Shown here: positions 1,370 through 59,000 of the stretch, piece after piece
Position numbering within the stretch: position 1 is the stretch's first letter
Layout: each line of letters starts with the position of its first letter
Source: Eledone cirrhosa
Taxonomy: Eukaryota
DNA: 64,000 nucleotides
Direction of reading: 5' to 3'
NCBI GenBank assembly: GCA_964016885.1
Contig: OZ024765.1
Span: 11,470,001-11,534,000, forward strand
The notes under the pieces: generated by a model
Told to the model about the DNA's origin: nothing
What the model saw: only the letters and a program-made list of their open reading frames with translations
Databases searched by the model: none
Translations under genes and position numbers: made by a program

Positions 1370-3270
1370 GCTGGTGCAGTAGTCCTCAAATGCCCCTTGT
1401 AGGGCAGAGTCCTCAAACACTCCCTTTAGCAGGTTCTGAAAGAAGCAACCATCTCCAACTGATTCAGCTAGATCCCCAAGCAAGACCAGCCAAGCTCATG
1501 GATGTTATCCAACCATCTTGCTTGAGGTAGTTTACCCCTGCATCTCCTGCTGGTTGGTTTTGCCCATAAAAATCTGTCCAGCAATTCTTTCCTGAGACAT
1601 TCTAACCACATGTCCATTGTATCAGAGCTGTGATCTCTCAATTCAGAGAAGTAGCAGCTCTACCTGGAATGACTCTCTGATCTCTGAGCTACAAATCTGT
1701 CCAGCAATTCTTTTCTGAGACATTCTAACCACATGTCCATTGTATCAGAGCTGTGATCTCTCAATTTAGAGAAGTAGCAGCTCTACCTGGAATGACTCTC
1801 TGGTCTCTGAGCTACAAATATCTCCAGCAATTCTTTCCCGAGACATTCTAACCACATGTCCATTGTATCAGAGCTGTGATCTCTCAATTCAGAGAAGTAG
1901 CAGCTCTACCTGGAGTGACTCTCTGATCTCTGAGCTACAAATCTGTCCAGCAATTCTTTCCTGAGACATTCTAACCACATGTCCATTGTATCAGATCTGT
2001 GATCTCTCAATTCAGAGAAGTAGCAGCTCTACCTGGAATGACTCTCCGATCTCCGTGCTACAAATCTGTCCAGCAATTCTTTCCTGAGACATTCTAACCA
2101 CATGTCCATTGTATCAGAGCTGTGATCTCTCAATTCAGAGAAGTAGCAGCTCTACCTGGAGTGACTCTCCGATCTCCGTGCTACAAATCTGTCCAGCAAT
2201 TCTTTCCTGAGACATTCTAACCACATGTCCATAGTATCAGAGCTGTGATCTCTCAATTCAGAGAAGTAGTAGCTCTACCTGGAGTGACTCTCCGATCTCC
2301 GTGCTACAAATCTGTCCAGCAATTCTTTCCTGAGACATTCTAACCACATGTCCATAGTATCAGAGCTGTGATCTCTCAATTCAGAGAAGTAGCAGCTCTA
2401 CCTGGAGTGACTCTCTGATCTCCGAGCTACAAATCTGTCCAGCAATTCTTTCCTGAGACATTCTAACCACATGTCCATTGTATCAGAGCTGTGATCTCTC
2501 AATTCAGAGAAGTAGCAGCTCTACCTGGAATGACTCTCTGATCTCTGAGCTACAAATCTGTCCAGCAATTCTTTCCTGAGACATTCTAACCACATGTCCA
2601 TTGTATCAGAGCTGTGATCTCTCAATTTAGAGAAGTAGCAGCTCTACCTGGAAAGACTCTCTGATCTCTGAGCTACAAATCTGTCCAGCAATTCTTTCCT
2701 GAGACATTCTAACCACATGTCCATTGTATCAGAGCTGTGATCTCTCAATTTAGAGAAGTAGCAGCTCTACCTGGAATGACTCTCTGATCTCTGAGCTACA
2801 AATCTGTCCAGCAATTCTTTCCTGAGACATTCTAACCACATGTCCATTGTATCAGAGCTGTGATCTCTCAATACAGAAAAGTAGCAGCTCTACCTGGAGT
2901 GACTCTCTGATCTCTGAGCTACAAATATCTCCAGCAATTCTTTCCTGAGACATTCTAACCACATGTCCATTGTATCAGAGCTGTGATCTCTCAATTCAGA
3001 GAAGTAGCAGCTCTACCTGGAATGACTCTCTGATCTCTGAGCTACAAATATCTCCAGCAATTCTTTCCTGAGACATTCTAACCACATGTCCATAGTATTG
3101 GAGCTGTGATCTCTCAATTCGGAGAAGTAGCGGCTCTACCTGGAGTGACTCTCTGATCTCCGAGTTACGCACGTTATTGAGTAATGTTACTCCAAAGACC
3201 CTTCGGAGGAATCCCATTTTGGCTGCTTGTATTTATAATCCTATTCTTTTCGTCATTATCCACGATTCAT
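1370..3270 (-). mobile_element. Rex3/Expander-like RTE LINE 3' fragment, inactivated, with internal tandem array
   Basis: Minus-strand translation MGFLRRVFGVTLL..VRNSEIRESLQVEPLLLRIERSQL..YGHVVRM matches the recalled Rex3/Expander C-terminal motif (EPLLLRIERSQLRWxGH); stop codons in the repeated units. Confidence 0.85.
1571..3165. repeat. 123-bp tandem array, 13 copies
   Basis: GAGACATTCTAACC recurs at 1594, 1717, 1840 ... 3070 with exact 123-bp spacing. Confidence 0.95.
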
Positions 3271-23033: not shown

Positions 23034-24040
23034 GTCTTTGGAGTAACGTTACTCTATAGAGTGCATAGCTCGGAGATCAGAGAGTCACTCAAGGTAGAGC
23101 TGCTACTTCTTTGAATTGAGAGATCACAGCTCTGATACTATGGGCATGTGGTTAGAATGTCTCAGGAAAGAATCGCTGAACATATTTGTAGTTCAGAGAT
23201 CAAAGAGTCGCTCCACATAGAGCTGCTACTTCTCCAAATTGAGAGATCACAGCTCTGATACAATGGACATGTGGTTAGAATGTCTGAGGAAAGAATTGCT
23301 GGACATATTTGTAGTTCAGAGATCAAAGAGTCGCTCCACATAGAGCTGCTACTTCTCCAAATTGAGAGATCACAGCTCTGATACTATGGGTATGTGGTTA
23401 GAATGTCTCAGGGAAGAATCGCTGAACATATTTGTAGTTCAGAGATCAAAGAGTCGCTCCACGTAGAGCTGCTACTTCTCCAAATTGAGAGATCACAGCT
23501 CTGATACTATGGGTATGTGGTTAGAATGTCTCAGGGAAGAATCGCTGAACATATTTGTAGTTCAGAGATCAAAGAGTCGCTCCACATAGAGCTGCTACTT
23601 CTCCAAATTGAGAGATCACAGCTCTGATACTATGGGTATGTGGTTAGAATGTCTCAGGGAAGAATCGCTGAACATATTTGTAGTTCAGAGATCAAAGAGT
23701 CGCTCCACGTAGAGCTGCTACTTCTCCAAATTGAGAGATCACAGCTCTGATACTATGGGTATGTGGTTAGAATGTCTCAGGGAAGAATTGCTGGACATAT
23801 TTGTAGTTCAGAGATCAAAGAGTCACTCCAGGTAGAGCTGCTACTTCTCTGAATTGAGAGATCACAGCTCTGATACTATGGACATGTGGTTAGAATGTCT
23901 CAGGGAAGAATTGCTGGACAGATTTTACAGGCAAAACCAACTGGTAGGAGACCCAGGAGCAGACCCTGAGCAAGATGGTTGGATAACATCCCTGAGCTTG
24001 GCTGGTCACACTTGGGGATCCAGCCAGATCAGTTGGAGAC
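23034..24040 (+). mobile_element. Rex3/Expander-like RTE 3' fragment with 123-bp x7 array
   Basis: GTTAGAATGT at 23151, 23274, 23397, 23520, 23643, 23766 and 23889; flanks are homologous to the reverse complement of the flanks of 1571-3165. Confidence 0.88.
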
Positions 24041-28435: not shown

Positions 28436-28762
28436 TCATCATCATCATCATTTTTACGTCCGCTTTTCCCTGCTTGCAAGGGTGGGACGGGAACTGATTC
28501 TGGCTTGATGCCCTTTCTAACACCAACCTCATTTACAGTGAGTGCTGGGTGCTTTTTTTGCCGTGGAACCTCCACGACCACTTTGCAGTGGAATGATAGG
28601 GACCCCAGTCCCTATCATCTCATTTCTACAGCTGAGTAAACTGGAGCAATGTGAAATAAAGTGTCTTGCTCAAGGAAACAACACATCACCCAGTCTGAGA
28701 ATTGAACTCACAACCTTTCGATTGCAAGGCCAATGCTCTAACCACTAAGCCATGTGCTTCCA
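28436..28762 (-). mobile_element. Young tRNA-derived SINE
   Basis: Reverse complement of the 4763-5102 family. Confidence 0.9.
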
Positions 28763-29867: not shown

Positions 29868-29906
<39 letters not shown>

Positions 29907-29992
29907 GTAGGTCCCAGGTTGAGTCGGGGATAACCACAGTAAGTAAGGTACTCAATACATGGCAGAGTAAAATATATTTATTGTATAGAAGG

Positions 29993-30043
29993 AGCTTCTA
30001 CAGGACTAGAACTGTTTCATTCAGATGAAATCTTCAGGAAGCT
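29993..30043 (-). ncRNA. Type I hammerhead ribozyme, family A
   Basis: agcttc-CTGAAGA-t.ttc(atct)gaa.t-GAA-ACAG(ttctagtc)CTGT-A-gaagct; GUA triplet. Confidence 0.8.
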
Positions 30044-30296
30044 GGGTGTCATATTAAGTTCTGGTATTTATACATTTAGGTAGTGGTAAGTGAGGGGTGG
30101 TGGCTGGGGGGGGGGGGGGGGGGGGGGATTTTGGGTAGGTTGGTATTTAGATACAGAGGACCATAACATGGCACACACCGTTTTTTCTTTGGGGAGTGGT
30201 CAATTAGCCGGAGTGCTTTTGTAAAATAGTAGTGGTAGTGGTGGTGGTGGTCCTAAATGTATAAATGTATAAATACCAGAACTTAATATGACACCC

Positions 30297-30347
30297 AGCT
30301 TCCTGAAGATTTCATCTGAATGAAACAGTTCTAGTCCTGTAGAAGCT
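30297..30347 (+). ncRNA. Type I hammerhead ribozyme, family A
   Basis: Exact inverted copy of 29993-30043; predicted cleavage 3' of A30341. Confidence 0.8.
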
Positions 30348-30358
30348 CCTTCTATACA

Positions 30359-30408
<50 letters not shown>

Positions 30409-30689
30409 ATATATATATATATATATAAAGATATATAGATATATATATAAAGATATATATATATATATATAAAGATATATAGATATATATATAAAGATAT
30501 ATATATATATATATAAAGATATATAGATATATATATAAAGATATATATATATATATAAAGATATATGGATATATATATAAAGATATATATATATATATAT
30601 AAAGATATATATATAAAGATATATATATATATATATATAAAGATATAAATGAAGTAATTCAAATATGATGATGATATATCATCATAATA

Positions 30690-35595: not shown

Positions 35596-35904
35596 CCCAT
35601 GCAAGCATGGAAAAGCTGATGTAAAAAATGATGATGATATGTATGTCCTTCGAATGAAACAGTTCTAGTCCTGTAGAAGCCATTTCTATATTAAATATAT
35701 ATATACAACAAAAAAAAAAGGTGTGGTAAGATACCAGGTGGACCAGAACGCACCAGAGTACTCAATACTTAGGATAGTAGAGTGGGTAACAGGAAAAGAG
35801 TCAGGACCCCAACAGCTGAGCTCCGGCCCTTTCAACAACTAGATCCGAACTAAGTCAGAAATTGGGGTCCTGACTCATTTCCTATACTACACACACATAT
35901 ATAT

Positions 35905-35943
<39 letters not shown>

Positions 35944-36026
35944 GTTATTCCGGGTTGAATCGGAGGTAACCACAGTAAGTAAGGTACTCAATACATAGCA
36001 GAGTATAACAGTTTTAATATAGATGA

Positions 36027-36075
36027 GATTCTACAGGACTAGAACTGTTTCATTCATTTGAAATCATCAGGAATC
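36027..36075 (-). ncRNA. Type I hammerhead ribozyme, family A
   Basis: gattc-CTGATGA-t.ttc(aaat)gaa.t-GAA-ACAG(ttctagtc)CTGT-A-gaatc. Confidence 0.8.
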
Positions 36076-36120
36076 CCTGATGATTTCAAATGAATGAAAC
36101 AGTTCTAGTCCTGTAGAATC
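36076..36120 (+). ncRNA. Family A hammerhead copy with stem I 5' strand lost at the inversion junction
   Basis: Core and stems II/III intact; upstream GAATCC pairs with GAATC at only one position. Confidence 0.6.
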
Positions 36121-36133
36121 TCATCTATATTAA

Positions 36134-36176
<43 letters not shown>

Positions 36177-41960: not shown

Positions 41961-42071
41961 GAGAGCCGTTATTTGATGCAAATAACACGTGATTTCGCCC
42001 TACTCTGGGCAGCGTGTATATTAGCTTTCTCTCTATCCATGAGGTTAGATGTGTCGTGAACAGTGTCCACA

Positions 42072-42148
42072 TTTACTGACTGAGGATCCTGTGACCTGTT
42101 ATACTTCACATATCAGTGGTGAAACGAAGCGAGATTCGTATCAGCAAA
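42072..42148 (+). ncRNA. Type I hammerhead ribozyme, family D (canonical core)
   Basis: tttactga-CTGAGGA-t.cc.tgtga..tcaca..gg.t-GAA-ACGAA(gcgaga)TTCGT-A-tcagcaaa; predicted cleavage 3' of A42140. Confidence 0.8.
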
Positions 42149-42384
42149 CTTATAGTTATAAGGTTGGTAATTTAAAACTCTAATTCAGAGATTTGATTCT
42201 GACTTAGTTTTTTTCTATTTAATTGCTAAACCTGTAGATATTGTTCTCTATACACTAACGGTAAAACTCACTTGTAATAATTCTTTACACACATCTCACT
42301 GTATAACACACTTCTCTTTGTGTAATATATTTGTATATATACATATATATATTTGGAGCCTACTTTCCAAGATAAAAATCTGAC

Positions 42385-44974: not shown

Positions 44975-45138
44975 TACACGTTATTCCGGGTTTACTCTAA
45001 ATATAAATTATAGCTTTAAAGAATTAGCTTTTAATGAATTCCCTTTTCTACCAACCAAATACCTCTACCCATCCCACTCCCTACCCTCTCCTACCACCCG
45101 AAGAGGCCTATAAATACCATATTTATTTTTTGATACCC

Positions 45139-45189
45139 AGATTCCTGATGATTTCTAAAGAATGAAATAGTTCTAGTCCTGTAGAATCT
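45139..45189 (+). ncRNA. Type I hammerhead ribozyme, family A
   Basis: agattc-CTGATGA-t.ttc(taaa)gaa.t-GAA-ATAG(ttctagtc)CTGT-A-gaatct; U.G wobble in stem III. Confidence 0.75.
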
Positions 45190-45248
45190 CATCTATATTA
45201 AAACTATATATATATATATACATACATATATATATATTTGCATATATG

Positions 45249-50829: not shown

Positions 50830-51082
50830 AGGCACATGGCTTAGTGGTTAGAGCATTGGGCTTGCAATCAAAAGGTTGTGAGTTCAATTCTCAGACCGGG
50901 TGATGTGTTGTTTCCTTGAGCAAGACACTTTATTTCACATTGCTCCAGTTTACTCAGCTGTAGAAATGAGATGATAGGGACTGGGATCCCTATCATTCCA
51001 CTGCAGAGTGGTCGTGGAGGTGCCACGGCAAAAAAGCACCCAGCACTCAGGACGTAAAATGAAATGATGATGATGATGATGA
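50830..51082 (+). mobile_element. Young tRNA-derived SINE with internal deletion
   Basis: Jumps from CAGCACTCA to GGACGTAAAATG. Confidence 0.88.
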
Positions 51083-58860: not shown

Positions 58861-58951
58861 AATATATATACATATATATATATATAATAATATATACATG
58901 TATATATATATACACATGTATCTATATATTAATTTATTCAATATAGAAATG

Positions 58952-59000
58952 GCTTCTACACGACTAGAACTGTTTCATTCGAGGGGAATCATCAGGAAAG
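58952..59000 (-). ncRNA. Degenerate family A hammerhead
   Basis: ttc-CTGATGA-ttcccctcgaat-GAAACAG(ttctagtc)GTGT-A-gaag; mismatches in stems II and III. Confidence 0.5.

What the first reader, a model, noticed from the sequence alone, without database searches (positions are those of the whole stretch)
29903..30367. Family A: two identical hammerheads pointing outward, with compensatory stem I changes across copies
Seen: stem I is AGCTTC/GAAGCT here but GATTC/GAATC at 36027 and AGATTC/GAATCT at 45139, a paired C-G to A-U swap. The stem II loop varies freely (ATCT, AAAT, TAAA) while TTC/GAA, the U.U closing mismatch, the core and the GUA site stay fixed. Inference: this pattern indicates selection on the ribozyme fold. 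The spacer holds a run of more than 20 G.
Basis: partly seen in the sequence, partly recalled or inferred. Interest (0 to 1): 0.8.

Follow-up and report, generated by a model that had tools for sequence, protein, structure and literature searches.

The report
Back-to-back Penelope retroelement ends with hammerheads
The two mirror-image self-cutting RNA motifs are real, but they are the ribozyme-bearing ends of a very common Penelope-type jumping gene joined head to head, a known kind of insertion debris; the one extra point is that many sister copies stop exactly where the ribozyme begins, likely because the element's RNA starts there.

Summary
Observation confirmed. Two 107-bp arms, 100% identical, each carry a type I hammerhead and face outward; the G run is 22 nt. 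The piece is a 5'-truncated copy of a Hydra-clade Penelope-like retroelement plus an inverted second end, inside (TA)n. Most of the spacer matches the end repeat (pLTR) of 3-kb elements that encode reverse transcriptase and GIY-YIG nuclease. The core occurs 23,848 times in this genome, and outward pairs are routine (15 pairs among 78 exact sisters). The layout is published, including for a Hydra element, and this scan has noted it on other DNA. The C-G/A-U swap holds in 101 of 103 copies but is one difference between two families. Selection on the fold is shown instead by distant relatives: 44 of 57 keep helix I paired, against at most 7 in shuffles. A read-through RNA would trap the ribozyme in a 107-bp hairpin. 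Cleavage is untested and probably needs a dimer. Extra: short copies stop at helix I's first base, often with an added G, 29-30 nt after a TATA box, which suggests a capped transcription start.

The parts
29872..29905 (.). (TA)n target microsatellite, left flank
29903..29971 (-). One-sided 'tail' (about 65-69 bp; its last bases merge with the TA repeat). It is the start of the element's reading frame and is present on the long arm only.
   Evidence: Continues into the RT ORF in L031 and L012; 31 of 33 held outward pairs have it on exactly one arm
29972..30078 (-). Long arm, ribozyme-bearing part of the pLTR; identical to the short arm
   Evidence: 107/107 identity
29993..30043 (-). Type I hammerhead, left copy; predicted cut after 29999; helix I begins at A30043
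   Evidence: descriptor scan; coordinates; cleavage not tested
30065..30072 (-). TATAAATA box 29 nt upstream of helix I (putative promoter, inferred)
30079..30228 (-). Upstream part of the pLTR, up to the 5' truncation point of the long arm
   Evidence: 29900-30228 aligns at 94.5% with L031 3125-3444 and at 91-95% with L032, L036, L039 and L046
30106..30127 (+). G22 run = expanded C-tract of the pLTR on the element's sense strand
   Evidence: 11, 11 and 12 in three other copies; L031 sequence
30229..30251 (.). Junction filler of GTA/GTG triplets between the two arms; resembles the nearby GGTAGTGGT of the long arm (slippage inferred)
   Evidence: sequence; not aligned to any sister copy
30252..30368 (+). 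Short inverted arm: pLTR piece with an 8-nt duplication (30260-30267), TATAAATA at 30268, no tail, running into (TA)n
30297..30347 (+). Type I hammerhead, right copy; predicted cut after A30341; helix III strand is self-complementary
   Evidence: cleavage not tested
30359..30647 (.). (TA)n target microsatellite, right flank; no target-site duplication can be read

Best explanation
This is a non-coding stub of a Hydra-clade Penelope-like retroelement: two cut-down copies of its hammerhead-bearing end joined head to head inside a (TA)n repeat, likely made in one insertion by the element's own nuclease and reverse transcriptase. Shown: both arms and most of the spacer are pLTR sequence of 3-kb RT/GIY-YIG elements of this genome; one arm carries the tail and the other does not; outward pairs are routine. 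Inferred: the nuclease cuts both strands in (TA)n; each broken end primes a cDNA on uncut element RNA, one from the far end of the tail and one about 65-69 nt nearer the ribozyme; both stop early and are joined by their unfinished ends (here with a 23-nt filler). Because each element 3' end faces host DNA, the hammerheads must point outward, and they are identical because the event is recent. Inferred for the ribozyme: it is kept by selection in active elements and likely cuts slowly, as a dimer through its self-complementary helix III or with help from the element's protein. At this locus it is likely idle, since read-through RNA would pair it with its antisense copy.
For: Spacer and arms align to tandem pLTRs 3,068 bp apart around an RT-then-GIY-YIG frame in L031. 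Motifs RWR, DKT, YRDD, CxCx5C, YIG, CxxC and CxH are in the Hydra order. Relatives at 32-51% identity include proteins with RVT_1 and GIY-YIG hits. Among all 78 exact sisters: 15 outward pairs, 1 tandem, 0 inward within 5 kb; among the first 100 of 23,848 cores: 19 outward, 1 inward, 1 tandem. Tail on exactly one arm in 31 of 33 held pairs, on both in 0. Published layout: inverted 5'-truncated copy plus one-sided tail (PMC8557442, PMC3846280); Penelope-13_HM has a hammerhead on each strand. An anole PLE protein nicks and extends both strands and starts at two sites that bound the tail, using uncut RNA (PMC11167929). Helix III strand: hairpin -1.4 versus homoduplex -12.8 kcal/mol; whole element folds at -230 or -212 kcal/mol into one long hairpin. 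74 of 75 core matches in relatives' loci lie on the coding strand.
Against: No fully intact ORF was seen in the 20 stretches fetched, and the element's own protein has no Pfam or PDB hit. No tree was built, so clade placement rests on motifs. The tail is longer than the 30-40 bp usually reported. Two-end priming is not shown for this clade; self-priming on an antisense template has been proposed for the same layout. In the dimer model the active fold (-23.4) is less stable than a misfold that traps the core GAA (-27.6). No RNA data bear on cleavage.
Confidence: 0.92

Rival explanations
1. Same element, different route: a single cDNA folds back or switches template (self-priming), so the short arm is copied from the long arm or from an antisense template, not primed at the second DNA end.
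For: Arms are 100% identical. Many junctions are palindromic, for example GAAGCTTC. Arkhipova et al. argue for self-priming on an antisense template (PMC3846280 passages).
Against: Here the junction is not a palindrome and holds a 23-nt filler. In 9 of 9 family-A junctions where both arms end in an extra G, the centre base is A or T, not the G or C that continued fold-back copying predicts. An anole PLE extends both strands in vitro.
Confidence: 0.25
2. The unit is a mobile entity in its own right (a MITE-like or retrozyme-like element) whose two outward ribozymes trim its RNA on both strands.
For: Perfect 107-bp inverted ends; both arms keep the TATA box, so two short outward RNAs that each begin with a hammerhead are conceivable.
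Against: Sister pairs have different spacings (246, 252, 265, 304, 403, 416 nt and others) rather than one amplified unit. The ends are asymmetric (tail on one). A read-through RNA has only one sense ribozyme and pairs it into a hairpin. Retrozymes are same-strand tandem units.
Confidence: 0.03
3. The hammerhead of this family is a vestige that no longer cuts; the paired swap is an accident of family history.
For: Only one two-sided swap separates families A and B. The active monomer fold has probability 0.001 and a misfold wins in the dimer. All copies span the cut site, so uncut RNA was copied. Metazoan PLE hammerheads cut poorly in vitro, and ribozyme mutants did not block insertion in vitro.
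Against: Core, GUA site and helix III palindrome are kept in 23,848 matches across families whose loops and flanks differ. A sub-family changes helix I only to a G-U pair, and a common variant lengthens the palindrome to ACTAGT. The U-U closing is the commonest state in relatives (25 of 57) and in published Hydra hammerheads.
Confidence: 0.15

Closest known systems
Hydra clade of Penelope-like elements (Craig et al. 2021, PMC8557442), e.g. Penelope-13_HM and Hydra-1_Obim
   Same: RT followed by C-terminal GIY-YIG; RW(K/R), DKT, CxCx5C, CxxC and CxH motifs; (TA)n targets; type I hammerhead with palindromic helix III and often a U-U closing of helix II; Penelope-13_HM has a 5'-truncated inverted copy with a hammerhead on each strand.
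   Different: The hammerhead sequence differs from the listed Hydra-1_Obim one, so this is another family; helix III is longer (16 nt, two internal mismatches); RWR instead of RWK; unit 3,068 bp with microsatellite stretches; tail about 65-69 bp.
PLE hammerheads (Cervera and de la Pena 2014, PMC4209133)
   Same: Type I motif in pLTRs, palindromic helix III, dual motifs 100-700 bp apart on opposite strands, families with covariation.
   Different: U-U rather than the G10.1-C11.1 pair they call highly conserved; helix II only 3 bp; no activity data for this family.
Poseidon PAc of Anolis (Frangieh et al. 2024, PMC11167929)
   Same: Hammerhead at the pLTR-ORF junction; tail is the start of the ORF; AT-rich targets.
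   Different: Different clade; two-strand priming, two start sites and protein-assisted cleavage were shown there and are only inferred here.
Metazoan non-LTR retrozymes (bioRxiv 10.64898/2026.07.22.740005)
   Same: Non-coding, PLE-derived, type I hammerhead.
   Different: They are same-strand tandem units; this locus is an inverted pair.

Membership tests
Endonuclease-bearing Penelope-like element | Single frame with RT and GIY-YIG flanked by pLTRs in tandem | tested here: met
   Sister L031: pLTRs 3,068 bp apart around YRDD and YIG motifs, frame broken in places. The window copy itself has no ORF beyond the tail.
Endonuclease-bearing Penelope-like element | Inverted 5'-truncated copy and one-sided tail | tested here: met
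   tail about 65-69 bp versus 30-40 bp reported
Endonuclease-bearing Penelope-like element | Hammerhead in the pLTR on the coding strand | tested here: met
Hydra clade | C-terminal GIY-YIG, RWK, DKT, CxCx5C linker, CxxC and CxH around the nuclease E and N | tested here: met
   RWR, DKT, CNCPDKTTC, YIG, CDLC, CMH in L039, L037 and L038 against section 11 of PMC8557442
Hydra clade | Insertion into (TA)n | tested here: met
   window flanks; most of 33 pairs
Hydra clade | Length generally under 3 kb | tested here: inconclusive
   3,068-bp unit including microsatellites, one copy
Hydra clade | Absence of the CCHH motif; placement in an RT tree with named Hydra families | not tested
   no alignment to named Hydra proteins and no tree were made
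Naiad clade | N-terminal GIY-YIG and no canonical hammerhead | tested here: not met
   nuclease follows RT and a hammerhead is present
Type I hammerhead ribozyme | CUGANGA, GAAA and NUH core with three helices, open at helix I | tested here: met
   covariation in relatives; below Rfam gathering scores
Type I hammerhead ribozyme | Site-specific self-cleavage | not testable with these tools
   no raw RNA reads were available
Non-LTR retrozyme | Same-strand tandem units each with a hammerhead | tested here: not met
   the two copies are on opposite strands

The most novel reading that the evidence does not exclude
In these octopus Hydra elements the RNA begins exactly at the first base of the hammerhead's helix I, 29-30 nt after a TATA box. 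The reverse transcriptase starts in the tail, runs off the capped 5' end and copies the cap as an extra G, and two such cDNAs, one from each broken DNA end, are fused head to head. Thousands of mini-insertions would then be a genomic record of the transcription start site, of cap copying by a telomerase-like RT and of two-ended priming, and the ribozyme would remove the cap with a leader of about 45 nt from the element's own mRNA.
Probability: 0.45. Interest if true: 0.45.

Novelty: new member of a known kind. Interest (0 to 1): 0.17.

Why it matters
As found, it matters little: it is one of tens of thousands of ribozyme-bearing ends of a known retroelement clade, in a published layout. Its value is as a data set. 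How PLEs form inverted ends and tails, and what their hammerhead does, are stated open questions (PMC8557442). The regular long-arm/short-arm pattern and the pile-up of 5' ends at helix I with an extra G give testable predictions about where the RNA starts and how two cDNAs are joined.

Tried and rejected
Rfam at gathering thresholds: no hammerhead hit, only two tRNA-like matches. Pfam on four ORF pieces: nothing; on 22 aligned relatives: one RVT_1 and one GIY-YIG hit. PDB sequence search: nothing. Naiad membership: considered from memory, rejected on domain order and hammerhead. A 3' splice site at CCCAG|CTTC as the cause of the junction pile-up: rejected, because the truncated copies share no common upstream exon sequence. 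Family C as a test of cap versus fold-back for the extra G: inconclusive, since most G's could come from the opposite arm and the pattern excluded T. The helix I count dropped family A through a faulty filter and was redone. Sequencing runs: no RNA holder listed. Contigs of four runs were laid: depth falls about 17-fold upstream of helix I in one run guessed to be RNA, but it falls similarly in a run of unknown kind, and contigs cannot show ends, so this is no evidence either way. Look-up of earlier findings by sequence: nothing. Searches for a prior report of a start site at helix I or of cap copying in PLEs found none in this library, which lacks most subscription papers; bioRxiv supplements were not seen.

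Full report
Observation. The window lies on contig C26 of a 3.0-Gb genome rich in AT microsatellites; an Octopus vulgaris protein matches the element's ORF at 90% identity over 38% of the query, so the host is octopus-like. Positions 29972-30078 and 30262-30368 are exact reverse complements over 107 bp. Each arm holds a type I hammerhead: helix I AGCUUC/GAAGCU, core CUGAAGA, a 3-bp helix II closed by U-U, GAAA, a 16-nt helix III strand and GUA, with predicted cuts after 30341 (plus) and 29999 (minus). The window also holds partial relatives at 35652, 36076 and 58924. The G run is 22 nt. The core pattern has 23,848 exact matches in the genome and its reversed control has none.

What it belongs to. 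A search with the right arm gave 1,069 candidates, of which 40 were scored: 22 at 100% (two are the window's own) and 18 at 99%, so the family is young. I fetched 20 longer stretches. In L031 two hammerhead-bearing repeats lie 3,068 bp apart on one strand around a frame that reads reverse transcriptase and then a GIY-YIG nuclease, broken by frameshifts. Window 29900-30228 aligns to that repeat at 94.5%, and at 91-95% to four more copies. So the 'spacer' is mostly the element's own end repeat (pLTR), the G run is its C-tract (11, 11 and 12 in the three other copies that matched), and 29903-29971 is the beginning of the reading frame. Only 30229-30251 is junction filler. The ORF has RWR, DKT, YRDD, CNCPDKTTC, YIG, CDLC and CMH, the diagnostic set given for the Hydra clade in section 11 of PMC8557442. 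Pfam and the PDB gave no hit for the element's own protein, and I built no tree.

The outward layout is routine. Among all 78 exact matches to this sub-family's core there are 15 outward pairs, 1 tandem pair and no inward pair within 5 kb; among the first 100 of the 23,848 general matches there are 19 outward, 1 inward and 1 tandem. Of 33 distinct outward pairs within 1.4 kb in loci L001-L230 (not a random sample), 31 carry the tail on exactly one arm, none on both and 2 on neither by my filter. PMC8557442 and PMC3846280 describe this inverted copy plus one-sided tail (passages). PMC4209133 reports dual hammerheads 100-700 bp apart on opposite strands (first half of the text). Supplement files S1 and S2 of PMC8557442 list Penelope-13_HM with a 5'-truncated inverted copy and a hammerhead on each strand, and an octopus family, Hydra-1_Obim, with a different hammerhead. 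An O. vulgaris repeat annotation does not use the words hammerhead or Hydra in its main text (PMC13282606 passages).

The compensatory change. Of 325 distinct cores in held loci of this genome, 103 kept the genomic upstream context and a GAA?CT 3' strand; they split into 62 A-T, 39 C-G and 2 A-A, with no C-T or A-G (many family-B rows come from one tandem array). Stronger evidence came from 77 metagenome loci that encode relatives of the ORF. 54 of 77 hold a full hammerhead. With no helix I requirement, 74 of 75 core matches are on the coding strand, and 44 of 57 distinct cores have four Watson-Crick pairs in helix I, using all four pair types at each position; 2,000 shuffles gave a mean of 2.0 and a maximum of 7. 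The shuffles do not correct for kinship, but the sequences are diverse. U-U closes helix II in 25 of 57, G-C in 18. Selection on the fold is therefore well supported for the clade.

How the ribozyme likely works. As a monomer the active fold is -6.7 kcal/mol against -9.8 for the best fold, probability 0.001. The helix III strand is self-complementary: -1.4 as a hairpin, -12.8 as a homoduplex, which fits the dimer mode reported for PLE hammerheads (PMC4209133; PMC6765202 passages). Against easy activity, a helix II misfold that traps the core GAA beats the active dimer by about 4 kcal/mol. In the anole PLE the ribozyme cut only with protein, was not needed for insertion in vitro, and uncut RNA was the template (PMC11167929, first half of the text). 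The copies here span the cut site, which agrees. At this locus a read-through RNA from either side folds into one 107-bp hairpin (-230 and -212 kcal/mol), so the two ribozymes cannot partner each other. Cleavage was not tested, and no RNA reads were available.

How the insertion likely formed. The anole protein nicks and extends both strands at AT-rich DNA and starts reverse transcription at two sites that bound the tail. Applied here (inference): each broken end in (TA)n primed a cDNA, one from each start site, and the unfinished ends were joined. That yields one long and one short arm, both facing outward. Self-priming or fold-back is the rival. The comparison with LINE-1 twin priming is recalled; I saw only search listings for it.

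A further pattern. In 17 of the 19 outward pairs the two cores are only 4-27 nt apart, so the arms stop within or just before helix I. I asked which base precedes helix I when it is not the genomic C. Family B gave 2,092 matches; the first 100 read G 79, T 11, A 10 (hand count). Family A gave 739; the first 100 read about G 45, A 53, T 2, the A's mostly from the palindrome GAAGCTTC (hand count). For scale, 8,083 A or B cores keep the C (a slightly wider pattern that includes tandem arrays). In the 60 loci inspected, 55 were junctions at this base and 5 were point mutants of longer copies. TATAAATA starts 29-30 nt upstream in families A and B, and a TATA-like motif lies 37-42 nt before the core in 10 of 56 relatives against a shuffle maximum of 6; 46 of 56 lack it. 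Many of the G's could be supplied by the opposite arm or by one-base fold-back onto the helix I 3' flank, and family C was uninformative. But at 9 of 9 family-A sites where both arms end in G with one base between (two lie 4 kb apart and may be one event), that base is A or T, not the G or C that continued fold-back would give. The simplest reading is a capped RNA that starts at helix I, with the cap copied as G (cap copying by RTs is recalled knowledge). RT stalling at helix I remains possible. Drosophila Penelope instead has a TATA-less internal promoter (PMC2377424 passages), while rotifer pLTRs have putative TATA and initiator motifs. Three searches found no report of a start at helix I. 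The window's own arms both extend upstream of this site, so they were copied from a longer RNA.

Verdict. A real but ordinary feature: a new family member of the Hydra clade in a published insertion layout, already noted by this scan on other DNA (read after my own tests). Interest 0.17. The start-site and cap reading is the part worth a follow-up.

Noticed in passing
G000:C28:30699111-30735708 (L079, L080): Tandem array of about 78-bp units, each a family-B hammerhead with short flanks on one strand: a retrozyme-like or satellite array derived from the pLTR. Large arrays may explain the strand excess (5,280 versus 2,803).
   Followed up: partly
window 35937-36143: Minimal back-to-back pair of family B: tail plus hammerhead on minus, tail-less core on plus, with only GAATCC between the two cores.
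   Followed up: yes
window 44977-45206: Family-B copy preceded by a short inverted piece of the tail end (TACACGTTATTCCGGG...), a variant of the same two-arm layout.
   Followed up: no
window 42070-42150: An unrelated match to the type I hammerhead descriptor (CTGAGGA core, long helix II region, 4-bp helix I).
   Followed up: no
window 35652-35702 and 58924-58998: Truncated family-C ends (GAAGCC 3' strand) beside (TA)n.
   Followed up: partly
window 28691-28754 and 50837-50894: Two near-identical tRNA-like Rfam matches, probably heads of a tRNA-derived SINE.
   Followed up: no
window 1570-3168 and 23066-23925: 123-bp tandem satellite present twice in opposite orientation, about 90% alike.
   Followed up: no
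L130-L133: Most family-A copies have ACTAGT in helix III (longer palindrome) where the window's sub-family has TCTAGT; one sub-family turns a helix I G-C into G-U.
   Followed up: partly
L049 3651-4436, L024, L050: Other Hydra-like PLE families with different ORFs lie next to family-A copies, suggesting nested insertion in shared (TA)n targets.
   Followed up: no
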